DNA from: a virus
UHGV virus genome: UHGV-1855269
DNA length: 11,275 nucleotides
Reading direction: 5' to 3' (one strand)
Position numbers and translations under genes: made by a program. The notes beneath the pieces are model-generated. The model did not search any database. It was not told the DNA's origin and worked only from the letters and a program-made list of their open reading frames with translations. Positions 1 through 11,275 of this stretch are shown piece after piece. Every line of letters begins with the position of its first letter. Positions within the stretch are counted from its first letter, which is position 1.

Positions 1-4
1 TGTA

Positions 5-445
5 TTAAAACTCCCCGAGAACCTGGTCAATCTTGCCGCAGTCGAATACCCAGTCGACGGTTCCGCCCTCTTTAGCGTTATTGAAATCAGGCTGTTTCTG
101 GAATGCACACGAACGCGCAGTAGAAATATCACCCGATGCCGTGTTGCGAATGACGATCACGTTATTGCCCCAGGTGGCAGAGGACTGGCTTTGCGCGTTA
201 TACGCCAGAGACAGCTTTTTATTCACCGGGGAGGTTTTGAGTAGCGTCACCGTAATGGTGCCTGACTTATCGGCGTGCAGGCTGTGCATCACCTCGCCAT
301 CGGCACCGATGGTCATGGTGTTTTTGTTGCCGCCCATGGTCTGGGTGATACCTTCCTCAGAGTTCGCAGAACCCTGACCAAGATCGATAACGCCGGTCGG
401 CCCGGTGAGCGACGCGGTTACATCGAGAAAAGAATAAGTTGCCAT
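5..445 (-). CDS. Putative contractile-tail tube protein (146 aa)
   Basis: Complete ORF immediately downstream of the sheath-sized gene. AAGGAG-like RBS 6 nt before the ATG at 445. Size and Gly/Thr/Ser-rich composition fit a tube protein. Family assignment is from memory only. Confidence 0.45.
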   Translation of the reverse strand: MATYSFLDVTASLTGPTGVIDLGQGSANSEEGITQTMGGNKNTMTIGADGEVMHSLHADKSGTITVTLLKTSPVNKKLSLAYNAQSQSSATWGNNVIVIRNTASGDISTARSCAFQKQPDFNNAKEGGTVDWVFDCGKIDQVLGEF

Positions 446-455
446 TTATCGCTCC

Positions 456-1601
456 TTAGCGAACCACGTTGATCTGCACATCGGCATAATGAACTGCGCC
501 AGCCAGCTTACAGGCCACCTGGATTAACGGTGCTTTGCGCGCTTCGCGGTCGGCCTGCGCCTGTTCGGACAGCGGTTGCGCATACACGTAATAGCCTTTG
601 GTCAGCGTATCGCCGGAATTCAGCTGTCCGATAGGGCCACCATTCCACACGCCAGCAGCTACCAGACCGTTCGTGACGGACTGATCCATGGACTGTTCAA
701 CGTTGGAAAGCAGACGGGTCACACCGGCATCAGTCTGCGGAATTTTGGTGGTGCTGGTATAAAGCAGGTTATAGAGGTTGGTCTGCACATAATTCTGTAA
801 CCAGTCCAGGCCGTGGCGTTCATCAAAGAAATCGCCGTTAGCCATCACTCCCTGCTGGAGGATAGCCGTATCATTCTGGTAGTACACGAATACATTGCAG
901 TTTTTTGCATCAAGTGCCGATGCCTGGCTGACTGTCAGTGTTTCATACCCGACGCCCGGCTCCTGCTTAAACTTGAGCGTAATCGCGGTATTACTGCCAT
1001 TAAAATTAACCGTGAATGCCCGGCCAAATGCAGATAACGCAGCGTATTTATTACCCGATGAATACTGAATAAAACTGCGTGAATATCCGGCGGTTTTCAG
1101 TTTTGATGCCAAATCATCGCTGGATGCAGTCTGCAGGCATTTCTCATCGCTTGTCGTAATCGCCAGAATACGGCTTACAGAAGAGGATTCGATCGCCGCA
1201 GCCACTTTCAGCCAGTCTGCATCCGGAATATCTGCATCGTCTGCAATCCCCAGCCCATACCATGAAGTATAATCGAGCATGGCATTCACAGCCTGCTCCA
1301 GCGTCTCAGGCGTGGCCTGTTCGCTGTCTCCCTTCGTTTTCACCCAACGACCAACAAAAACCTCCTGAGGTTTCGGTGATTGAGAGAAAAACACCTGCGC
1401 AGCCTTATATTCTGGTGATTCCACGCCAAAATCTTTTCCAATATCTTCCGCGGCAGAATAACGGCGAATGCGCTCACTTACCGGAATGATTGTGGACGGG
1501 CCGAGAATGAGTAATGCACCAAAATTTCGCCCTGATGCTGCACGCGGCGACATGATCACATCAACATTAACAACGTTTGATACAGGCAAGCCCTGTGCCA
1601 T
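456..1601 (-). CDS. Putative tail sheath protein (381 aa)
   Basis: Long ORF with a GGAG RBS before the ATG at 1601. Sheath-then-tube order and small-sheath size match P2/Mu-type myophage tails. Ser/Thr/Asn/Gly-rich composition. No homology search possible. Confidence 0.45.
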
Positions 1602-1604
1602 AGC

Positions 1605-2168
1605 TTAATCTCCGAAAAAGATGACTGGTGCTTCCACCAGCGATTTAATACCGTACTCGCGCACAACCTTCCGGCGCAGACGCACCGTCATATCGTAGCG
1701 GCGGACCCATTGCTGATTAATAAGTTCAGGGAAGGGAGTCAGACCTGTGTAATCGCCAAGAGACAGCCCCAGCGCATTCAGTGCTGCATTGTTCTGCGGC
1801 ACAGATATACCGTCACGAAACCGGGACGCATACACCATCCCCGCCGGTCCATAAAACGAAGCCATACACTCAATCGTTTCATGCCGCCAGAGCTGAGAGC
1901 CATCATCAGTCTGTCTGGTGAATGCCGGACTGTCATCACCTGACCATCCGATAACCCCAAACGCACACCAGTTCGTTTCAGCCGGTAGCAGTGGCGGCTG
2001 CTCTTTCTGCCAGCGCGGGCGAACCATCCCGGCAGACAGACCGGAAACGTTACGCATCCACTGGCTTAACAGCCTGTCGAGCGCTTCGTCATAATCCGGA
2101 TCGCCACTGGTTGGTATTAACCATCCGCGCTCTGTACTGGTGTTATTGCTCAACCGGAGTTCCCCCAT
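1605..2168 (-). CDS. Hypothetical neck or tail-completion protein (187 aa from the first ATG)
   Basis: ORF packed directly upstream of the sheath gene. The ORF track starts at TTG 2171; the first ATG is at 2168. It overlaps the upstream gene by about 26 nt, suggesting coupling. Confidence 0.4.
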   Translation of the reverse strand: MGELRLSNNTSTERGWLIPTSGDPDYDEALDRLLSQWMRNVSGLSAGMVRPRWQKEQPPLLPAETNWCAFGVIGWSGDDSPAFTRQTDDGSQLWRHETIECMASFYGPAGMVYASRFRDGISVPQNNAALNALGLSLGDYTGLTPFPELINQQWVRRYDMTVRLRRKVVREYGIKSLVEAPVIFFGD

Positions 2169-2532
2169 CAAACGGCATCAACTCACAATGCGCCTGAACG
2201 AATCCGGCCCCATAAGCTGTATACGGGTCGACGAAGGTCACACGATAATCACGGCCCTGATACGTCACGATATCGGCATCACGGCCAGTCTGTCCCTGCG
2301 TCAGTCGCTCAGTCGTCACAATCAGAATTGCACCGCTGATTACCTGCCCTGCCTGCATACGGCGGTTTTCCAGAGAGCGATCAACAGTTACGACTCCGGC
2401 AAACTGCTTTTTAACTTCACTGTCGCTGCCGATCCCGTCCTCATCCACCGTTTGCACTCGGCGTGTTACCCACAAATTGAAGTCGCAAAAATCGGGGTCA
2501 AAAAGCACGTCTGTTACATCAAGAGTAGGCAT
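2143..2532 (-). CDS. Hypothetical virion structural protein (129 aa)
   Basis: ORF with a GAGGGA RBS before the ATG at 2532. It overlaps the preceding gene end by 14 nt. Position is within the neck-gene block. Confidence 0.4.
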   Translation of the reverse strand: MPTLDVTDVLFDPDFCDFNLWVTRRVQTVDEDGIGSDSEVKKQFAGVVTVDRSLENRRMQAGQVISGAILIVTTERLTQGQTGRDADIVTYQGRDYRVTFVDPYTAYGAGFVQAHCELMPFDGGTPVEQ

Positions 2533-3073
2533 CTTTATCCCTCACAACATGGGTAATGGCTCTGCGATATTGCCCGGTGTCGATTAGCGGTTTCACCAGA
2601 TCGGTTCCGGGGGACTCGCCAGCAGCGCGTCGGGCAAGCTCCGCTTTCGCCCCTTTACGCCCTCGACGCGCGCGGGCTTCAACGGTGCTGTCAGCAAGCG
2701 GCGTAAAGCCGGTAATGGTCATGTACCGCCTGACACCATTAGCGGCCAGCGTGCCAGCCTGGTTGAGGGCTCTTTCCGCACCCGCCGCATTTCCATCAAG
2801 CGCAGCCTGCGCCGCTGCTTTAAGCTGCGGCACTGTCTGTTCCTCTACCGATTTAACGCCGGGGATCAGGTGCGGGCGTGGGGGGATATTTTGCGCCGGT
2901 GAGCCGTTTTCATTGACGTAGCCGATCCCCGCATTACCAAACGGAACATCTTCACGCTCGCTGTCTTCCGAAGGGATGCCGACCAGCACTTCTTTTTTAC
3001 CGATGGATTTGAGCGCATCCAGAATGGCCTGAGCGTTATCCACCCTCGTTGTCACACCGCTTTTGAAACTCAT
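2519..3073 (-). CDS. Putative head-tail joining or tail completion protein (184 aa)
   Basis: ATG at 3073 overlaps the upstream stop (ATGA coupling). The C-terminal motif KPLIDTGQ resembles the L-x-DTG motif I associate with phage tail-completion/virion-morphogenesis proteins; this is from memory and unverified. Confidence 0.4.
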
Positions 3074-3477
3074 AGCTGGCGACCGCCCGCACCAAACATC
3101 GTGATCAGCTGATAAAATTCAGCGCCATATCGGGTGTTATTCCAGAAGCCTGCGTCAGGGTTTAGCGTCGCGCTGGTGTCATAGCTGACGCTTACCTTGT
3201 CAACGGACTTAGAGGACTGAACACCATTGGTTGAACCGCCCGGGCCGCCAACCAGCATCGCCCGGCTATCTGCCGCCCAAAGCGTCATGTAGTGCGCAAC
3301 GAACAACTCGGCAAAATACGGAAACAACTTTTTGCCGGTGACCTTTTCGCTTAGCAGCACATCGGCCAGATTCAGACGAAACTGGATTTGCGCTTCGGGA
3401 TATTTGGCAGGGTCAGCAAACTGCGGGAAGTCGCGGCGAAAATCACTTACCGCTGGCAGACTTTGATTCTTTGGCAT
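3070..3477 (-). CDS. Hypothetical head-tail connector-type protein (135 aa)
   Basis: GAGGT RBS 5 nt before the ATG at 3477. Gly-rich C-terminal half. Position is in the neck module upstream of the sheath gene. Confidence 0.4.
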
Positions 3478-3664
3478 TTTTTACCTCGTTACGCGCGTCT
3501 GTGGCTTTGCCAACGGATACTTCCGCGTGCGCACGAGTGAACCAGTGCGTGGCAACGTCTTCCTCCACTGCATGACGTCCTTTAACAAACTCGCGCCGCG
3601 AACCGTCGGGAAGCGTGAGCACAAACGGGGTATGTACGTGTATTACTGCATTATTTTTTGCCAT
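3443..3664 (-). CDS. Hypothetical small protein (73 aa)
   Basis: AAGGATG RBS before the ATG at 3664. It overlaps the next gene start by 35 nt. Confidence 0.35.
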
Positions 3665-3705
3665 CGGGTCATCCTTAATGGCCCCGCCAGGGGGCCATAT
3701 GGCTG

Positions 3706-4023
3706 TTAAATGCCATCAACGTACGAAATGGTTTCTTTGTACACTGGCTCGACTGCACCCAGCTTGCCGTAGTAGGTCGCAATCTGATACAGACCACGAT
3801 ACTGCACCGGCACGCTCTGAAGCGGAACCAGCGGGTAGCGGACGTATTTTTTATCGTTGGTGTACGCAACCATGCGATCCTTATTCCCCACACCACGGCC
3901 TTTCAGCCATTTAACCGCGCGGATATTCAGCGGAACACCGTTCTGGTGATAGCTGATGGTGTTGGTCTGAAGGTACGTCAACAGGGACTGGTTACCCGCA
4001 GATGAAACGATGATGCTGGACAA
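3706..4023 (-). CDS. Hypothetical protein, start uncertain; possibly the 3' part of a disrupted gene
   Basis: The ORF begins at TTG 4023 with no RBS. A strong RBS plus ATG sits at 4111 in another frame and hits a stop after 24 codons. See the frameshift finding. Confidence 0.3.
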   Translation of the reverse strand: MSSIIVSSAGNQSLLTYLQTNTISYHQNGVPLNIRAVKWLKGRGVGNKDRMVAYTNDKKYVRYPLVPLQSVPVQYRGLYQIATYYGKLGAVEPVYKETISYVDGI

Positions 4024-4097
4024 CAGAGCAAACTGCTCAGGTGGGATCTGCCACGCGATGCTCCACGACCTCCAGTTGAGGCCTGTAATCAGCTAAC

Positions 4098-4259
4098 TTA
4101 ACGACGCCCATGTTTCACTCCTGCTTTGGCTAGTCTGTAAACACCAACAAGGCGCTCTGCGAACGCCCTGTTATTTGCTACGGCTACCACTAATCCCTCA
4201 GGTGAATCAGGGTGTCGAATCTCTTCTTTTTCCTGGTATTTCTTACGACGTTTTGTCAT
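4098..4259 (-). CDS. Small basic hypothetical protein (53 aa, MTKRRKKYQEKEE...)
   Basis: ATG at 4259 preceded by an AGGAG RBS. It sits between cII and the structural block, where lambda would have the start of O. No recognisable similarity. Confidence 0.3.
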   Translation of the reverse strand: MTKRRKKYQEKEEIRHPDSPEGLVVAVANNRAFAERLVGVYRLAKAGVKHGRR

Positions 4260-4337
4260 AATTACTCCTGTGGATTGATCCAGTCTTTCTACATCAGGCC
4301 TCGAAGAATTCGCCGTTCTTCGGGGCTTTTTCTTTTG
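4260..4337 (+). ncRNA. oop: Candidate oop-like antisense RNA overlapping the 3' end of cII
   Basis: A plus-strand intrinsic terminator lies inside the cII 3' end, antisense to cII, as for lambda oop. The 5' end is only estimated from an 80-nt length expectation. Confidence 0.35.
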
Positions 4338-4572
4338 TCAGCATTCTGGCTACTTTCTTAGCCAGTTCCGCCAACTCCTCGTCTTCAACACCCCATTCAA
4401 GAACAGCCAGAAGCATTCCCATTTTGGGGATGAAGCTATCTTTCCATCGCGAAATTTGCGATTCATTAATCCCTAACGCGTCGGCAACCTTTCGCTGACC
4501 ACGTACAGCAATTCGATTCAGGATGTTGCTTGTAATTGCATTCGCTTTCTTGCGAGTACTTGTAAGTTGCAT
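4294..4572 (-). CDS. cII: CII-like transcriptional activator (92 aa)
   Basis: The translation aligns with lambda CII across the HTH and the conserved ESQISRWK and MLLAVLEWGV segments. Start chosen at the internal ATG 4572 with an AAGGAAA RBS. It is not identical to lambda CII. Confidence 0.85.
   Translation of the reverse strand: MQLTSTRKKANAITSNILNRIAVRGQRKVADALGINESQISRWKDSFIPKMGMLLAVLEWGVEDEELAELAKKVARMLTKEKAPKNGEFFEA
4299..4336 (+). terminator. Rho-independent terminator (10-bp stem with one mismatch, 7-nt loop, T-rich tail)
   Basis: cctcgaagaa-ttcgccg-ttcttcgggg followed by ctttttctttt. It is functional only on the plus strand, because the T-tract follows the stem only there. Confidence 0.55.
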
Positions 4573-4651
4573 ATGTAAGTATTTCCTTAGATAACAATTG
4601 ATTGAATGTATGCAAATAAATGCATACACCATAGGTGTGGTTTAATTTGAT

Positions 4652-4683
4652 GCCCTTTTTCAGGGCTGGGATGTGTAAGAGCG
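4652..4683 (-). promoter_or_regulatory. nutR: nutR site (boxA CGCTCTTA, boxB GCCCTGAAAAAGGGC)
   Basis: The reverse complement reads cgctcttacacatcccagccctgaaaaagggc. This matches the lambda nutR boxA/boxB arrangement and lies just downstream of cro. Confidence 0.8.
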
Positions 4684-4691
4684 GGAATGTC

Positions 4692-6044
<1,353 letters not shown>

Positions 6045-6094
6045 TCCCCACCTCAATCTCGCTAACCAAAAAACAAACTATTTTCCGTTTAAAA

Positions 6095-6162
6095 ACAATG
6101 GAGTTTGTTTTTCATGCCCCTTTTTACAATATTTCTTGTTTACAACATACAATCTTTCTTGT
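6095..6162 (+). promoter_or_regulatory. OL3-OL2-OL1 operators overlapping the PL promoter
   Basis: Three 14-bp ACAA-N6-TTGT sites: 6095-6108 acaatggagtttgt, 6126-6139 acaatatttcttgt, 6149-6162 acaatctttcttgt. They lie about 45 nt upstream of nutL. Exact -35/-10 hexamers not assigned. Confidence 0.8.
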
Positions 6163-6207
6163 AATTTTAAGCCATCAGCAGGACGCACTGACCACCATTG
6201 AAGGTGA

Positions 6208-6238
6208 TGCTCTTAAAAATTAAGCCCTGAAGAAGGGC
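6208..6238 (+). promoter_or_regulatory. nutL: nutL site (boxA-like TGCTCTTA, boxB GCCCTGAAGAAGGGC)
   Basis: tgctcttaaaaattaagccctgaagaagggc; the boxB hairpin matches lambda nutL. It lies about 160 nt upstream of the N start. Confidence 0.85.
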
Positions 6239-6396
6239 AGCATTCAAAGCAGAAGGCTTTGGGGTGTGTGATACGAAACGAAGCATTGGCCGGAAGTGCG
6301 AATCCGGATTAGCTGCAAATGAGCCAATCGTGGGGTGTTTTCGTTCAGGACTACGACTCACACACACCACCAAAGCTAACTGACAAGAGAATCCAG

Positions 6397-6729
6397 ATGG
6401 ATGCACAAACACGCCGCCGCGAACGTCGCGCAGAGAAACAGGCTCAATGGAAAGCAGCAAATCCCCTGTTGGTTGGGGTAAGCGCAAAACCAGTTAACCG
6501 CCCTATTCTCTCGCTGAATCGCAAACCGAAATCACGAGTAGAAAGCGCACTAAATCCGATAGACCTTACAGTGCTGGCTGAATACCACGAACAGATTGAA
6601 AGCAACCTGCAACGTATTGAGCGCAAGAATCAGCGCACATGGTACAGCAAGCCACGCAGTGAAATGGGTGTGACTTGTGTTGGTCGCCAGAAGCAACGCG
6701 GAAAATCAATTCCAGCTTATTACGATTGA
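6397..6729 (+). CDS. N: Antitermination protein N, lambda type (110 aa)
   Basis: The translation from ATG 6397 (MDAQTRRRERRAEKQAQWKAANPLLVGVSAKPVNRPILSLNRKPKSRVESALNPIDLTVLAEYH...) matches lambda N, including the arginine-rich boxB-binding motif. The C-terminus diverges. Confidence 0.9.
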   Translation: MDAQTRRRERRAEKQAQWKAANPLLVGVSAKPVNRPILSLNRKPKSRVESALNPIDLTVLAEYHEQIESNLQRIERKNQRTWYSKPRSEMGVTCVGRQKQRGKSIPAYYD

Positions 6730-6737
6730 GGTGAGCC

Positions 6738-6875
6738 ATGCTCAAGAAAGTCAAACGTCGACTTTACAAAGAAGGTAGATATTCATGCCAGTTGCCAAAA
6801 TGCGACACAACAAAATGGAGTGTCGATGATTGGTGTAACTGGATAGATAGATACGGAACTTGGTGGGATAAATAA
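6738..6875 (+). CDS. Small Cys-rich hypothetical protein (45 aa), in the slot lambda uses for ral
   Basis: ATG 6738 with a GAGGTGA RBS immediately after the N stop. Four Cys (C-x4-C, then two more) suggest a zinc-ribbon-like fold. Below the ORF-track length cut-off. Confidence 0.4.
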   Translation: MLKKVKRRLYKEGRYSCQLPKCDTTKWSVDDWCNWIDRYGTWWDK

Positions 6876-6929
6876 CAGGTAACTTAAGCATATTTACTTT
6901 CGCAGCAAACCACTTATTTGAGGTGAGAT

Positions 6930-7400
6930 ATGACAAAATCATGGAGCGTACCTTTTCCTGAATCAGAAACTGAACATGATGGAATGCCTGTTTTCTGGAG
7001 ATTCCAGGCGACAGTTGAAGAAGATGGGATAAAAATATTCGCACTTCAATATATAGCTTTTCATCAGACAGAGCATTATGCATGGTTGGTTCCTGCGCAT
7101 TGGATTGTTGATTTTAAACCAGCACCAAATCAGTGGTTACAGGAATGGAAACAAAAGAGAAATAGATATGCAATTAAGAAAGTAGCAAAAAATGCAGAAA
7201 GATCTTTTGCATTCCCAACGAAGAAACTTGCCATTGAAAGTTTATTGCGCCGGAAGAAATACCATTTAATGAGAATCAAACAAGATTTGGCTGTTGTATC
7301 AACTCTTGTTGATGGGATGAAGAATATTGATACATCAACACCAGATATTGAATATAACTTTGGACACAACCAAGAAACAGAAAATTGGGTATTTTATTAG
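6930..7400 (+). CDS. Hypothetical protein (156 aa) in an AT-rich insert
   Basis: GAGGTGAG RBS before the ATG at 6930. The local sequence is visibly more AT-rich than the flanks. No TM segments or known motifs recognised. A plus-strand terminator follows. Confidence 0.6.
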   Translation: MTKSWSVPFPESETEHDGMPVFWRFQATVEEDGIKIFALQYIAFHQTEHYAWLVPAHWIVDFKPAPNQWLQEWKQKRNRYAIKKVAKNAERSFAFPTKKLAIESLLRRKKYHLMRIKQDLAVVSTLVDGMKNIDTSTPDIEYNFGHNQETENWVFY

Positions 7401-7504
7401 TACAAATAAGCACTGTGTATTCATTCCAACGAGTGAATACACGGAGCAATGTCGCTCGTAACTAAACAGGAGCCGACTTGTTCTGATTATTGGAAATCTT
7501 CTTT

Positions 7505-7528
7505 GCCCTCCAGTGTGAGGGCCTTTTT
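7505..7528 (+). terminator. Candidate intrinsic terminator after the AT-rich insert
   Basis: gccctc-cagtgt-gagggc followed by cttttt: a 6-bp GC stem, 6-nt loop and T-run. Confidence 0.45.
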
Positions 7529-7594
7529 ATATGCATACCAATAACGCTTCACTCGAGGCGTTTTCGTTATGCAATCAAATATAAGGAGTTACCC

Positions 7595-7729
7595 ATGATG
7601 CACTTTCAGCTCGCGGGTAGCGGCGTCATGTCCGCTTTCTACCCGCACGAATCTGAATTATCACGCCGAGTTAAACAATTAATCAGAGCAGCAAAGAAAC
7701 AACTGGAGGCGTTATGCGCAATGAAATAG
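7595..7729 (+). CDS. cIII: CIII-like protein (44 aa; candidate FtsH inhibitor)
   Basis: AAGGAG RBS 6 nt before the ATG at 7595. The N-terminus MMHFQLAGSGV...ESELSRRVKQLIRAAKK resembles lambda CIII (MQYAIAGWPVAG...ESLLERITRKLRDGWK) from memory. Confidence 0.55.
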   Translation: MMHFQLAGSGVMSAFYPHESELSRRVKQLIRAAKKQLEALCAMK

Positions 7730-7866
7730 CCATCAATCACCAGATGCTTCGTGCTGCACAGAACAAAGCAGTAATAGCCAGATTTATTGGTGATTCCAAA
7801 ATGTGGCTTGAAGCAAATAAAGCGATGAAATCAGCTATCAACCTTCCGTGGTATCGCAGGAAATGA
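7714..7866 (+). CDS. kil: Kil-like host-killing protein (50 aa)
   Basis: ATG 7714 with GGAGG upstream; it overlaps the cIII stop. The segment AAQNKAVIARFIGDSKMW resembles the lambda Kil core as I recall it. Below the ORF-track cut-off. Confidence 0.45.
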   Translation: MRNEIAINHQMLRAAQNKAVIARFIGDSKMWLEANKAMKSAINLPWYRRK

Positions 7867-7941
7867 GTTTTACAGATAACTGGTCAGACGAGGAATTCAT
7901 TCGTCAGATGAAAGAATTAATCGGTAACGAAGGAGATATTC

Positions 7942-8112
7942 ATGTCACTTGCAACCACAGTGAAGGAGAGCAAGTTACAGAGACGCATGTACACGCAGCA
8001 GGCGTTAATGTATCGCCAGAAGGGAGATCGTGAAGGTGTTCGCGTATTTTTGAATGCGGCAAAGACTGAAGTATTAAATCAGCGTTATTTCCTTGGGCCA
8101 TGTCCATTCTGA
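7942..8112 (+). CDS. Small hypothetical protein (56 aa), Arf-like by position
   Basis: Strong AAGGAGA RBS 5 nt before the ATG at 7942. It sits between kil and erf, where P22 has arf. A competing ORF at 7863-8033 in another frame overlaps it. Confidence 0.4.
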   Translation: MSLATTVKESKLQRRMYTQQALMYRQKGDREGVRVFLNAAKTEVLNQRYFLGPCPF

Positions 8113-8122
8113 GAACAATCAT

Positions 8123-8728
8123 ATGAGCAAAGAATTTTACGCAAGACTGGCAGCCATTCAGGAGAATCTGAACGCGCCAAAAAATCAGTACAACTCATTC
8201 GGTAAATATAAATACAGAAGCTGCGAAGATATTCTTGAAGGCGTTAAGCCGTTACTGAATGGTCTGTTTTTATCAATCAGCGATGAAGTTGTGCTGATTG
8301 GTGATCGGTATTACGTGAAAGCCACGGCAACTATTACCGATGGCGAAAACAGTCATACAGCAACCGCTCTTGCACGAGAGGAAGAAAGCAAGAAAGGAAT
8401 GGATTCTGCACAAGTTACGGGAGCTACAAGCTCTTATGCACGCAAGTATTGCCTCAATGGTTTATTCGGCATTGATGATGCGAAAGATGCAGATACCGAC
8501 GAGCATAAACATCAGCAGAACGCAGCAGCAAAGCAATCAAAACCATCACCTACGCCTGAACAGGTTCTAAAAGCATTCACTGACGCGGCATTGCAGAAAA
8601 ACACCGTGGAAGAGCTTAAACAGGCGTTCGCCAAAGCGTGGAAGATGCTCGAAGGCACACCGGAGCAGCACAAAGCGCAGGACGTTTACAACATCAGACG
8701 AGACGAATTAGAAGGAGCGGCTGCTTAA
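8123..8728 (+). CDS. erf: Erf-family single-strand annealing protein (201 aa)
   Basis: The translation from ATG 8123 (MSKEFYARLAAIQENLNAPKNQYNSFGKYKYRSCEDILEGVKPLL...) closely matches my memory of P22 Erf. The ORF-track upstream extension is rejected. Confidence 0.75.
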   Translation: MSKEFYARLAAIQENLNAPKNQYNSFGKYKYRSCEDILEGVKPLLNGLFLSISDEVVLIGDRYYVKATATITDGENSHTATALAREEESKKGMDSAQVTGATSSYARKYCLNGLFGIDDAKDADTDEHKHQQNAAAKQSKPSPTPEQVLKAFTDAALQKNTVEELKQAFAKAWKMLEGTPEQHKAQDVYNIRRDELEGAAA

Positions 8729-9111
8729 TGGCACATTCGATTACTGTAAGACTAAACAAGCCCGCAAGAGAGTTTCAGGCCGGGGAAAATATCGGATTCA
8801 ACATCCGTGCTGGCGTTCAGTATTACGATCGCCAGACAAAAAAGAAAGAATGGACAAACTACAGCGCCGTTGTATTTGTCAAGCCGGGAGCGCAAGCGGA
8901 TTACTACCGTAGCGTTCTTGTTGAAGGTGGCATTGTGGAAATTACCGGAGAAAACATCAGGGTTGATGTTTATCAGGGGCAAAATGGTCAATCAATCACT
9001 CTTGAATTACTGAATGCAAAGATTGGATTTGCAGCTTCAGGAAATGGCCCGCAGCAGCAAAGTAGTAACCAGCAGAACACTCCTGTATACGACGATTCCA
9101 TCCCATTCTGA
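8728..9111 (+). CDS. Phage SSB-like protein with C-terminal DDSIPF tail (127 aa)
   Basis: ATG 8728 overlaps the erf stop (TAATG), with a GAAGGAG RBS. The Gln/Gly-rich linker ends in DDSIPF, the signature of the bacterial SSB acidic tip (DDDIPF). Confidence 0.6.
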   Translation: MAHSITVRLNKPAREFQAGENIGFNIRAGVQYYDRQTKKKEWTNYSAVVFVKPGAQADYYRSVLVEGGIVEITGENIRVDVYQGQNGQSITLELLNAKIGFAASGNGPQQQSSNQQNTPVYDDSIPF

Positions 9112-9134
9112 TTCAGAAAAATAAGGATTTAATC

Positions 9135-9428
9135 ATGCCAGCGCCTCTGTATGGTGCGGATGACCCGCGCCGTTGTTCCGGCAATTCCATATCGGAGGTG
9201 CTGGATAAATTCAGAAAAAACTACGACCGGATAATGTCGCTACCGCAGGAAACGAAAGAGGAAAAGGAATTTCGCCACTGTATATGGCTTGCAGAGAAAG
9301 AAGAACGCGAGCGAATTTACCAGACATCAATCCGACCATTCCGCAAAGCCACATATACCCACTTCCCTGAAATTGACCCGCGCCTGCGTAATTACCGCTC
9401 ACGCTATGGCGCTATCAGTAATGACTGA
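9135..9428 (+). CDS. Hypothetical protein (97 aa); possibly an Abc2-like anti-RecBCD factor by position
   Basis: Complete ORF downstream of erf/ssb. The functional guess rests only on gene order in P22-type recombination modules and on size. Confidence 0.35.
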   Translation: MPAPLYGADDPRRCSGNSISEVLDKFRKNYDRIMSLPQETKEEKEFRHCIWLAEKEERERIYQTSIRPFRKATYTHFPEIDPRLRNYRSRYGAISND

Positions 9429-9438
9429 GGAATTTACC

Positions 9439-9729
9439 ATGAAAACAATGAAGCTAAACATCGACCTCGGAAAATACGTTATTACCGGAACCAAACACGA
9501 TCTGATTCTTAGCGAAAGAGGAATTATCAAAGAAGGTGAGAATGCAGGGAAAGAAACACTAAGCCGTATCGGTTATTACAGCAAGTTTGAGCATCTGGTT
9601 AAAGAGTTATGCAACCGTGAAATCCTGTTATCTCAGGCGCAGACACTACAGGATATTCAGCAGCATATCGAGACTTTAGGTGTATCACTTAGCACGGCTG
9701 TTGACCAGTTCGTGGAGAGTAAATCATGA
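9439..9729 (+). CDS. Hypothetical protein (96 aa)
   Basis: ATG 9439 preceded by GAGGA at a 9-nt spacing. The in-frame ATG at 9421 lacks an RBS. No family recognised. Confidence 0.5.
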
Positions 9730-9813
9730 GAGGACTTGCATACAATCCCGGCATTCTTCCGGCAGAAATGATTATTCGCCAACGCGTAAAGCCAAATTTG
9801 AAGAGGTTACCCA

Positions 9814-10296
9814 ATGACAGCCCTTTATCAGATCGCCAACGATTTCGCCAAGCTGACTGACTCCGGCATGGAGCCTGAAATGATAGCCGACACTCTTGAT
9901 GGAATTGAGTGGGAGCTGGAAGCAAAGGTTGAGCAGATTCTTGCGGTCTGCAAAAACGAATCTGCTTATGCCGAGGCTCTGAAAGAAGAAAGTAAGCGCC
10001 TTACTGAGCGTGCAAAAGCCGCCGAAAGCCGCGTGGCAAGCATGAAGGAGTATGTCGCTAAATCATTGGAAACCATCGGTAAAAAATCACTTAAAGCCGG
10101 AGTTCATCAGGTAACGGTTCGCGCACCTTCTAAATCTGTCGAGATTACTGACGCCAGCGCATTACCGCCTGAATTCATCGAGTACGAGACGAATATCAAA
10201 CCAGACAAACTGGCTATCAAGCATCAAATCGAAGCTGGTATTGACGTGCCCGGGGCGCAAATAAAGCTCGGCAAGCCGTCTCTGATGATCAAATAG
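9814..10296 (+). CDS. Hypothetical coiled-coil protein (160 aa), possibly Gp157-family
   Basis: GAAGAGG RBS before the ATG at 9814. The central region is charged and helical. The family guess is from memory and weak. Confidence 0.45.
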
Positions 10297-10322
10297 GCCG
10301 AAATACTCTGGGAGCAGTGGAA

Positions 10323-10751
10323 ATGAAACGCACACCATTTTACCGCAGACCAGGTAAGGCCGGGAAATTCTCCGGACTCCGCGAGCGCGTTATCTGGATG
10401 ATTCAGACGCGCGGTCGCCCGGTAACTGGCAGCGAAATCGCAGAGAAATTCGGCGTAACGCTCATCGAATTTAACCGTGTCGCGAACGGCCTGACCAGAG
10501 GCGAAGGGCGCATTGCACAGCTGGTTACATCGGAAACCTGGCTCAACGAGGACGGCATCTGTGACCGCACCTTTGACCTGATCACAAAGCCAAAGGTTAT
10601 TACCCCTCAGGGTAAAACACGCCTGTTCACTCGGCGTTCTATGGCTCTGGCGGCAGAGGGTAATCGCCGGGAATGTATTGAGAAAGCAGCCCGGCGCCGC
10701 CGGCTGATTGCTGCTGGCCTTTATATCGACGAAATGGAGACGGCATTGTGA
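10323..10751 (+). CDS. Hypothetical protein (142 aa)
   Basis: ATG 10323 with GGAG upstream; the ORF track starts at GTG 10317. The Arg-rich C-terminus overlaps the downstream methyltransferase start (GTGA). Confidence 0.5.
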   Translation: MKRTPFYRRPGKAGKFSGLRERVIWMIQTRGRPVTGSEIAEKFGVTLIEFNRVANGLTRGEGRIAQLVTSETWLNEDGICDRTFDLITKPKVITPQGKTRLFTRRSMALAAEGNRRECIEKAARRRRLIAAGLYIDEMETAL

Positions 10752-11275
10752 CTGACTACGGCGGATCGAACACACCGAAAAATGAAAGAGACTACTGGCA
10801 AACGCCGATTGAAATATTTAACGCGCTCGATCTTGAGTTTGGCTTCTGGCTGGATGCTGCTGCCTCTGAACGTAATGCGCTATGCGCTCACTATCTCACT
10901 GAGCTGGATAACTCGCTGAGTCGTGAATGGTCGTCGTACGGCGCGATCTGGTGCAACCCACCCTATTCCGATATCGGGCCGTGGGTGGAGAAAGCCACCG
11001 AGCAATGTAAAGCGCAGTCCCAGACGGTAGTCATTCTGCTTCCCGCAGATATCTCTACCGGATGGTTTCTCTCCGCGATGCAGAGCGCTGATGAGATTCG
11101 CCTGATAACCGGCGGACGCATTCAGTTTGTGCCGGCGTCGGCTACAGGTAAACGGCAGAGCAACCCAAAGGACTCAATTTTGTTCATCTGGCGGCCATTC
11201 ATCACGCCAAGACGCATCATCACGTCCGTTTCGCTGAGTGAGTTAAAGCGGATCGGAACCATGGAGGCAGCATGA
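10748..11275 (+). CDS. Phage Dam-family DNA N6-adenine methyltransferase (175 aa)
   Basis: GTG start at 10748 with GGAGA 7 nt upstream. The catalytic motif NPPY (WCNPPYS) is typical of N6-adenine methyltransferase motif IV. Size fits small phage orphan methyltransferases. Confidence 0.65.
   Translation: MTDYGGSNTPKNERDYWQTPIEIFNALDLEFGFWLDAAASERNALCAHYLTELDNSLSREWSSYGAIWCNPPYSDIGPWVEKATEQCKAQSQTVVILLPADISTGWFLSAMQSADEIRLITGGRIQFVPASATGKRQSNPKDSILFIWRPFITPRRIITSVSLSELKRIGTMEAA

What the first reader, a model, noticed from the sequence alone, without database searches (positions are those of the whole stretch)
4037..4111. Frame discontinuity at the head of the structural block (possible frameshift or pseudogene)
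A strong RBS (AGGAGTG) and ATG at 4111 open a frame that stops after only 24 codons at 4037. The long downstream ORF (4023 to 3706) is in a different frame and begins at a TTG with no RBS. A third frame carries the 53-aa ORF ending at 4098. Three frames used in succession within about 220 nt is what a frameshift mutation or a recombination joint looks like.
Basis: seen in the sequence. Interest (0 to 1): 0.45.

Follow-up and report, generated by a model that had tools for sequence, protein, structure and literature searches.

The report
Deletion scar in a defective prophage
The odd run of three reading frames marks a 15.7-kb deletion that removed the replication, lysis, DNA-packaging and head genes from a lambda-like prophage of E. 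coli/Shigella, which is an ordinary way for prophages to become defective.

Summary
On the minus strand there is a 53-aa ORF (4259-4098), a 24-codon ORF with a good RBS (ATG 4111, TGA 4039-4037), and a 105-aa ORF that starts at a TTG with no RBS (4023-3706). Each is in a different frame.

The cause is a large deletion joint at 4048-4046, not a single-base frameshift. Upstream of the joint lies the lambdoid immunity/early-right region: cI, cro, cII, an HK97 gp53-like 53-aa gene, and the first 22 codons of replication gene O. Downstream lies the C-terminal 113 codons of a PF09950 major capsid gene, followed by the neck and contractile-tail genes.

A near-identical intact prophage in CP170302.1 (99.5-99.8% identity on both flanks, next to dsdC/tRNA-Arg) shows that 15,749 bp are missing. 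The lost genes are O, P, the nin region, Q, lysis, terminase, portal, scaffold and 200 capsid codons. The crossover lies in a 3-nt microhomology (GAT) and the fusion is out of frame.

The identical joint occurs in 11 other independent assemblies, so it is real and inherited, not a sequencing or assembly artefact. The overlap between the 53-aa gene and O is the native arrangement.

Verdict: a recently formed, replication-, lysis- and head-defective prophage. Low interest.

The parts
4046..4048 (-). Deletion joint. The 3-nt microhomology GAT is shared by O codon 22 and capsid codons 200/201. Position 4049 (A) derives from O and position 4045 (C) derives from the capsid gene.
   Evidence: Three-way alignments with HK446 and 689R2, with EJN001, and with the near-identical parent CP170302.1. 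The window is 100% identical to the O side through GAT and 100% identical to the capsid side from GAT onwards.
4037..4111 (-). O' remnant. It holds the first 22 codons of the lambdoid replication initiator gene O, then 2 out-of-frame codons (Pro, Thr) and TGA. The native RBS AGGAG is at 4122-4118.
   Evidence: Translation. The intact O is 273 aa in the parent (L025 10462-11283), with its PF04492 Phage_rep_O domain at residues 19-113. It is annotated as DNA replication protein O in HK446.
3706..4045 (-). 3' remnant of the major capsid gene (codons 201-313 of 313). It has no start codon or RBS of its own. The 'TTG 4023' ORF is an ORF-calling artefact within it.
   Evidence: Pfam PF09950 Major_capside, profile positions 138-251 of 251 only. 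The intact 313-aa gene covers positions 4-251. Translation of the EJN001 capsid gene.
4098..4259 (-). Intact 53-aa gene (HK97 gp53 family). It overlaps the O start by 14 nt, which is the native arrangement and not part of the lesion.
   Evidence: The same gene and the same 14-nt overlap are found in HK446, in EJN001 and in 7 of the 10 cII loci.
4294..4572 (-). cII gene (92 aa).
   Evidence: Pfam PF05269, E=1.9e-42.
4692..4907 (-). cro gene (71 aa, phage 434-type). The pR-like promoter is at 4963-4935.
   Evidence: 99.7% DNA identity to the phage 434 cro/cI region. Promoter scan found TTGACA-17-GAAAAT.
5011..5643 (+). cI repressor (210 aa, HTH plus S24 peptidase, phage 434/Sf6-type immunity).
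   Evidence: Pfam PF01381 and PF00717. Blast annotation.
1..3664 (-). Retained neck and contractile-tail genes downstream of the joint. These are the STY1053-family 73-aa gene, DUF4054 (E217_gp27-like), 184-aa and 129-aa genes, the neck terminator, the DUF3383 sheath and the tube.
   Evidence: Pfam. Collinear with 689R2, EJN001 and CP170302.1.

Best explanation
The frame discontinuity is the scar of one 15.7-kb internal deletion in a lambdoid prophage with a contractile tail, in an E. coli/Shigella-type host. In the intact relative the prophage is integrated next to dsdC/tRNA-Arg. Illegitimate, RecA-independent-type recombination at a 3-nt microhomology (GAT) joined codon 22 of replication gene O to codon 200/201 of the major capsid gene, on the same strand and in map order. 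The fusion is out of frame. Ribosomes that start at the intact O RBS therefore stop after 24 codons, and the capsid remnant has no initiation signals of its own. The deletion removed the rest of O (with its internal iteron-like repeats), P, the nin region, Q, the holin/endolysin/Rz genes, both terminase subunits, the portal, the MuF-like, scaffold-like and cement genes, and 200 capsid codons. The resulting element cannot replicate, lyse the cell, package DNA or build heads. It keeps immunity (cI/cro/cII), N, the pL recombination genes and the tail genes. The following steps are shown: the identity of both flanks, the exact joint, the size and content of the deletion, its inheritance across many assemblies, and its recency. 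The following steps are inferred: the recombination mechanism and the phenotypic consequences (a non-lethal, immunity-conferring defective prophage).
For: (1) Megablast splits the region at 4046/4051. Window 5200->4046 matches the HK446/Sf6/434 early region at 99.4-99.7%. Window 4051->1 matches the vB_EcoM-689R2 structural module and begins inside its 313-aa capsid gene.
(2) Pfam finds the downstream ORF to be only the C-terminal part of PF09950. The stub matches the first 22 aa of a PF04492 O protein.
(3) A prophage with the same gene order and strand exists in E. coli EJN001.
(4) A near-identical intact parent exists in CP170302.1, rebuilt from the overlapping loci L025 and L012. The window matches it at 99.84%, 99.51% and 99.68%, with a jump from parent position 10527 to 26274. 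That makes the deletion 15,749 bp.
(5) The window is a perfect match to each side up to and from GAT. Microhomology of at least 3 nt occurs in 5.5% of random junctions.
(6) The exact 36-mer joint is present in 11 other independent loci from NCBI, Logan and ENA assemblies.
(7) Loci with the deletion differ from the intact L012 by only 2-4 substitutions over about 13 kb of tail genes. Some carry further lesions: an IS1 insertion in L013 and a 976-bp deletion in L018.
Against: The joint is absent from 5,426 complete RefSeq E. coli genomes, from the phage collection, from the GTDB species representatives, from IMG/VR and from the JGI metagenome contigs. It is therefore confined to one lineage, whose identity I could not establish. 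A 3-nt microhomology is only weakly non-random (P about 0.055), so the molecular mechanism of the deletion is an inference. The window differs from the other joint-bearing loci by two recombination patches, so its history since the deletion is not purely clonal. No expression data exist for either remnant.
Confidence: 0.95

Rival explanations
1. A single-nucleotide frameshift, arising either as a mutation or as a sequencing error, has split one original gene into the 24-codon ORF and the 105-aa ORF.
For: Two adjacent ORFs in different frames, the second without an RBS, is the usual look of a frameshifted pseudogene.
Against: The two parts belong to unrelated genes, O and the major capsid gene, which lie 15.7 kb apart in intact relatives. 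No indel gives a coherent protein. The sequence is identical in 11 independent assemblies.
Confidence: 0.01
2. The joint is an assembly chimera that falsely links two different prophages, a P22/HK97-like lambdoid and a myovirus-type prophage.
For: The two flanks have their best matches in different phage records. No complete E. coli genome contains the joint.
Against: The same joint was assembled independently 11 times, including on contigs of 15 kb, 181 kb and 5.2 Mb. Natural intact prophages carry both modules in this order (EJN001; CP170302.1).
Confidence: 0.01
3. The joint arose by recombination between two separate resident prophages, or between a prophage and an infecting phage, and not by an internal deletion within one prophage.
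For: Lambdoid prophages are highly mosaic. The window itself carries patches from other alleles at 3500-3720 and 6271-6349.
Against: One intact prophage (CP170302.1) is 99.5-99.8% identical on both sides and is collinear with the window, so a simple internal deletion is sufficient. The joint truncates two genes at a 3-nt microhomology, unlike homologous or module-boundary exchanges.
Confidence: 0.03
4. The site is a programmed +1 ribosomal frameshift or a termination-reinitiation site that produces a functional O'-capsid' product or a capsid C-terminal fragment.
For: The TGA at 4039-4037 lies 13 nt upstream of the TTG at 4023, a distance at which termination-reinitiation is conceivable. This is an inference only.
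Against: There is no slippery or prfB-like context (GAT CCC ACC TGA G) and no SD-like stimulator. The juxtaposition was created by a very recent deletion, so no selection for such a signal can have acted. Neither fragment retains a complete domain.
Confidence: 0.01

Closest known systems
Cryptic/defective lambdoid prophages of E. coli K-12 (DLP12, Rac, Qin, e14), also called 'grounded' prophages
   Same: The element is a chromosomally fixed lambdoid prophage that has lost essential lytic functions through internal deletion and keeps a subset of intact genes. Prophage degeneration through deletions is reviewed in PMC6379469.
   Different: This element is much younger. The retained genes are 99.97-99.98% identical to an intact relative, and only one large deletion separates it from a complete phage. 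The K-12 elements carry many accumulated lesions, a statement that rests on my own knowledge.
Intact prophage at dsdC/tRNA-Arg in CP170302.1, and the similar EJN001 prophage (NZ_CP086338.1, 3.086-3.119 Mb)
   Same: The gene order and strands are the same: int ... N, cI | cro, cII, 53-aa gene, O, P, nin, Q, lysis, terS, terL, portal, MuF, scaffold, cement, capsid, neck, sheath, tube and onwards. CP170302.1 is 99.5-99.8% identical to the window on both flanks.
   Different: The window lacks parent positions 10528-26276 (15,749 bp). EJN001 has a different immunity region and is only 93% identical in the structural block.
Phages HK446/Sf6/434 (early region) and vB_EcoM-689R2 (structural module)
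   Same: The early-right region up to O codon 22 is 99.4-99.7% identical to HK446/Sf6/434. The capsid remnant and neck/tail genes are 92-96% identical to 689R2.
   Different: None of these phages carries both modules. 689R2 has a different early region with its own DNA polymerase and helicase.
R-type tailocins (phage tail-like bacteriocins)
   Same: It is a contractile-tail gene cluster without head or packaging genes, under an SOS-cleavable repressor.
   Different: The lysis cassette and the late activator Q are deleted. Sub-lineages show IS1 and deletion damage in the structural block. No evidence of selection can be drawn because the deletion is too recent.

Membership tests
Deletion joint of a defective prophage | Both flanks are collinear (same strand, same order) with an intact relative and the intervening segment is absent. 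| tested here: met
   The window matches the CP170302.1 parent at 3188-10527 and at 26271-30320, with 15,749 bp missing. The layout is the same in EJN001.
Deletion joint of a defective prophage | The genes at both edges are truncated. | tested here: met
   O retains 22 of 273 codons. The capsid gene retains codons 201-313 of 313.
Deletion joint of a defective prophage | The joint is reproducible in independent genomes, so it is not an artefact. | tested here: met
   The exact 36-mer is present in 11 other loci from NCBI, Logan and ENA assemblies. The flanking 155 nt are invariant in 7 sequences.
Deletion joint of a defective prophage | Functions essential for lytic growth are lost. | tested here: met
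   The deleted interval holds O, the P helicase, Q, holin, endolysin, Rz, terS, terL, portal, scaffold and most of the capsid gene (gene tables). Whether copies exist elsewhere in the source genome was not testable.
Frameshifted pseudogene (single indel) | A 1-2 nt indel restores an ORF homologous over its whole length to one intact gene. | tested here: not met
   The upstream and downstream parts align to two different genes.
Programmed ribosomal frameshift site | A slippery sequence plus a stimulatory element is present, and the two-frame arrangement is conserved in homologues. | tested here: not met
   No slippery motif occurs in 4092-4037. Homologues have the two genes 13.5-15.7 kb apart.
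Lambda O-type replication initiator (PF04492) | An N-terminal iteron-binding domain is present (Pfam positions 1-95, residues 19-113 in the parent). | tested here: not met
   Only residues 1-22 remain. This is a remnant, not a functional member.
PF09950 (DUF2184) major capsid protein | The full-length domain is present with its own translation start. | tested here: not met
   Only profile positions 138-251 of 251 are present, and there is no ATG or RBS.
R-type tailocin | A dedicated lysis cassette and a regulator drive tail gene expression. | tested here: not met
   Holin, endolysin, Rz and Q all lie inside the deleted interval.
R-type tailocin | The tail genes are maintained by purifying selection across strains. 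| tested here: inconclusive
   There are only 2-4 substitutions in 13 kb relative to the intact phage, which is too few to test. An IS1 insertion and a 976-bp deletion in sub-lineages argue for decay.

The most novel reading that the evidence does not exclude
The deletion places the whole neck/tail gene block directly downstream of cro-cII-O' in the pR operon, and N and its nut sites are retained. SOS induction might therefore transcribe the tail genes as 'early' genes without Q. That could yield headless contractile tails, a nascent tailocin released with the help of another prophage's lysis genes. Alternatively, a capsid C-terminal fragment made by termination-reinitiation at TGA 4037/TTG 4023 could interfere with head assembly of related superinfecting phages.
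Probability: 0.04. Interest if true: 0.45.

Novelty: new member of a known kind. Interest (0 to 1): 0.1.

Why it matters
The practical value is for annotation. The 24-codon ORF and the 105-aa 'TTG' ORF should be labelled as remnants of O and of the major capsid gene. Automatic gene callers already report the 105-aa ORF as a gene. The prophage should be scored as defective, because it has no replication, lysis, packaging or head genes. The case is also a clean, datable example of one-step prophage inactivation, with a near-identical intact parent available for comparison. It adds no new biology.

Tried and rejected
- I searched for the exact 36-mer joint in the GTDB species representatives, IMG/VR and the JGI metagenome contigs and found 0 hits in each. 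Megablast against 5,426 complete E. coli genomes and 50,697 phage records found no record spanning the joint. The joint appeared only through exact-protein look-ups, using the 105-aa remnant and the sheath protein.
- CP170302.1 is not in the annotated collections, so the parent prophage was rebuilt from two overlapping loci, L025 and L012, which share a 1,560-bp identical overlap.
- An Rfam gathering-threshold scan of the window found nothing.
- I rejected programmed frameshifting, a sequencing error, an assembly chimera and a functional mosaic boundary. The reasons are given under the rival explanations.
- I did not run structure prediction or deep homology searches, because both remnants have clear sequence-level identities.
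- I could not determine the species or lineage name of the strains that carry the joint. The host flank of the intact relative is 99.8% identical to E. coli dsdC/tRNA-Arg. The absence of the joint from complete E. coli RefSeq genomes, together with the IS1 insertion, might point to Shigella, but that is a guess.

Full report
**Observation.** Read on the minus strand, the region contains three ORFs.
- The first is a 53-aa ORF at 4259-4098.
- The second starts at the ATG at 4111-4109, which is preceded by AGGAG (4122-4118) at a 6-nt spacing. It reads MGVVKLADYRPQLEVVEHRVADPT and stops at TGA 4039-4037.
- The third is a 105-aa ORF from TTG 4023 to 3706 with no Shine-Dalgarno sequence.

The three ORFs use three different frames. 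The description is accurate.

**What the two sides are.** Megablast of 5200->3000 against phage records splits cleanly.
- Window 5200->4046 matches the immunity/early-right region of HK446, Sf6 and 434 at 99.4-99.7%. The features under this match are annotated as prophage repressor, Cro, CII, a hypothetical protein and 'DNA replication protein O'.
- Window 4051->3010 matches vB_EcoM-689R2-type phages at 96%.

In HK446 the 53-aa gene (similar to HK97 gp53) overlaps the start of O (similar to HK97 gp54) by 14 nt, exactly as in the window. That frame change is therefore native. In 689R2 the match begins inside a 313-aa CDS that precedes the neck and tail genes.

Pfam results support these assignments.
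- The window ORF is only the C-terminal part of PF09950 Major_capside (profile positions 138-251 of 251, E=1.2e-37).
- The downstream genes are DUF4054, a neck terminator, the DUF3383 sheath and a KPP10_Orf10-type tube.
- The upstream genes are CII (PF05269), an HTH+S24 repressor and N.

**The joint.** I made three-way alignments with HK446 O and the 689R2 capsid gene and with both genes of the E. coli EJN001 prophage. They place the crossover in the triplet GAT at window 4048-4046.
- O contributes codons 1-22 (…GCA GAT).
- The capsid gene contributes from codon 200/201 (…CT G AT C CCA CCT GAG…).
- The fusion puts the capsid sequence +1 relative to the O frame, so the O frame terminates two codons later.
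- In the capsid frame the first start-type codon after the joint is an internal Leu codon, TTG. That explains the 'TTG start without RBS'.

**Intact relatives.** EJN001 (NZ_CP086338.1) carries a complete prophage with the same layout on the same strands. The order is cI | cro, cII, 53-aa gene, O (273 aa), P helicase, nin genes, Q, holin/endolysin/Rz, terS, terL, portal, minor head protein, DUF2213, cement protein, DUF2184 capsid (313 aa), STY1053-family gene, DUF4054, …, sheath, tube.

A far closer relative came from exact-protein look-ups. The sheath protein and cII each retrieved loci from CP170302.1, namely L012 and L025. These overlap by 1,560 identical bases and together cover an intact prophage next to dsdC/tRNA-Arg. 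The window aligns to this parent as follows:

| Window segment | Identity | Parent positions |
|---|---|---|
| 11275->6349 | 99.84% | 3188-8113 |
| 6271->4046 | 99.51% | 8301-10527 |
| 4051->1 | 99.68% | 26271-30320 |

After allowing for the shared GAT, the deletion is 15,749 bp. At the joint the window is a perfect match to the O side up to GAT and to the capsid side from GAT onwards.

The deleted interval holds about 25 genes (gene tables): the rest of O, P, several nin genes, a phosphatase, Q, holin, endolysin, Rz, a KilA-N protein, terS, terL, portal, the MuF-like protein, the scaffold-like gp24 homologue, the cement protein and 200 capsid codons. The parent O gene has iteron-like repeats in its middle (L025 10818-10863), and these are also lost. 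In lambda-type replicons the origin lies inside O. That statement is established knowledge and was not tested here.

**Is it real?** The 105-aa remnant is called as a gene on six short contigs from Logan and ENA assemblies. These contigs carry the same cII / 53-aa gene / joint / capsid-remnant arrangement, and the sequence around the joint is invariant. Five longer loci retrieved with the sheath protein also carry it. They include three NCBI assemblies: GCA_013928545.1, GCA_048124485.1 and the 5.2-Mb chromosome CM127711.1. The exact 36-mer is present in all 11 loci. A base-calling error or an assembly chimera is therefore excluded.

The joint is absent from the following collections, so it belongs to a restricted lineage:
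- 5,426 complete E. coli genomes
- the phage collection
- the GTDB species representatives
- IMG/VR
- the JGI metagenome contigs

**Age and fate.** Joint-bearing loci differ from the intact L012 by 2-4 substitutions over about 13 kb of tail genes, so the deletion is very recent. Some sub-lineages have further damage: an IS1 insertion with a 9-bp duplication in the DUF4054 gene (L013, and probably L019) and a 976-bp baseplate deletion (L018). This looks like ongoing decay and not like maintenance of the tail genes.

The window itself differs from the other joint-bearing loci by two recombination patches. One is at 3500-3720 and is identical to the allele of a more distant relative, L011. The other is at 6271-6349 and is a lambda-like N leader in place of an unrelated 187-nt segment.

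**Mechanism.** The event joined non-homologous genes at a 3-nt microhomology. In simulated random junctions from the same sequence, 5.5% have at least 3 nt of microhomology, and 3% have at least 8 of 16 flanking matches. This pattern fits short-homology illegitimate recombination, but the mechanism is an inference.

The likely consequence, also inferred, is a prophage that can still repress, confer immunity and perhaps excise. It cannot replicate, activate late genes, lyse the cell, package DNA or build heads. This is the usual first step of prophage degeneration (review PMC6379469).

**Rivals.** I considered and rejected four other explanations: a single-indel frameshift, programmed frameshifting, an assembly chimera, and recombination between two separate prophages. 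The reasons are given in the Rival explanations section.

The least conventional reading that the evidence does not exclude concerns transcription. The tail genes now sit directly in the N-antiterminated pR operon, and no terminator-like site was found on the minus strand between cII and the capsid remnant. Induction might therefore express them. The loss of the lysis genes and the secondary lesions in sub-lineages make a tailocin-like function unlikely.

**Verdict.** The 'recombination joint' alternative is correct and the 'frameshift' alternative is wrong. The feature is a lineage-specific deletion scar in a recently inactivated lambdoid prophage with a contractile tail. It is ordinary biology, and its main use is for correct annotation.

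Noticed in passing
window 6271-6349: This 79-nt segment of the N leader, just upstream of N (6397-6729, + strand) and lambda-like by my recollection of the lambda sequence, is replaced by an unrelated 187-nt segment in the intact CP170302.1 parent, in all other joint-bearing loci and in HK446. It is a small mosaic substitution in the nutL/N-leader region.
   Followed up: partly
window 3500-3720: A cluster of 8 SNPs and a 1-nt indel separates the window from all other joint-bearing loci and from L012, yet the segment is 100% identical to the allele of the more distant relative L011. This is a gene-conversion patch acquired after the deletion. It covers the capsid stop codon, a GGCCCC-CTGGC-GGGGCC hairpin (3694-3678) and the start of the 73-aa STY1053-family gene.
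   Followed up: partly
L013 7555-8324; L019 start; L018 about 9845: Sub-lineages with the joint carry secondary lesions. L013 has an IS1 insertion with a 9-bp target duplication in the DUF4054 gene, and the L019 contig breaks at the same point. L018 has a 976-bp deletion that fuses baseplate genes.
   Followed up: partly
window 4296-4328 (+ strand): A strong terminator-like hairpin followed by a T-run lies antisense to the 3' end of cII. Its position matches the lambda oop RNA terminator, and HK633 is annotated 'similar to lambda oop mRNA' at the corresponding place. Rfam gave no hit.
   Followed up: no
window 9796-11275: The genes at the distal end of the pL operon (Sipho_Gp157-like 160 aa, a 144-aa ORF and a Dam methyltransferase of 175 aa) have no megablast match in E. 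coli complete genomes or phages. They are only about 80% identical to HK639 and Klebsiella phages, so this is a mosaic module of different origin.
   Followed up: partly
L025 1-2507 (CP170302.1): The intact relative is integrated next to dsdC and a tRNA-Arg gene. This is the argW site, which from my own knowledge is also the site used by Sf6. An integrase gene lies directly inside the prophage end.
   Followed up: partly
L025 10818-10915: Two 22-nt iteron-like repeats with internal dyad symmetry, followed by two A-rich 14-nt repeats, lie in the middle of the parent O gene. This is probably the replication origin, and it is entirely removed by the deletion.
   Followed up: no
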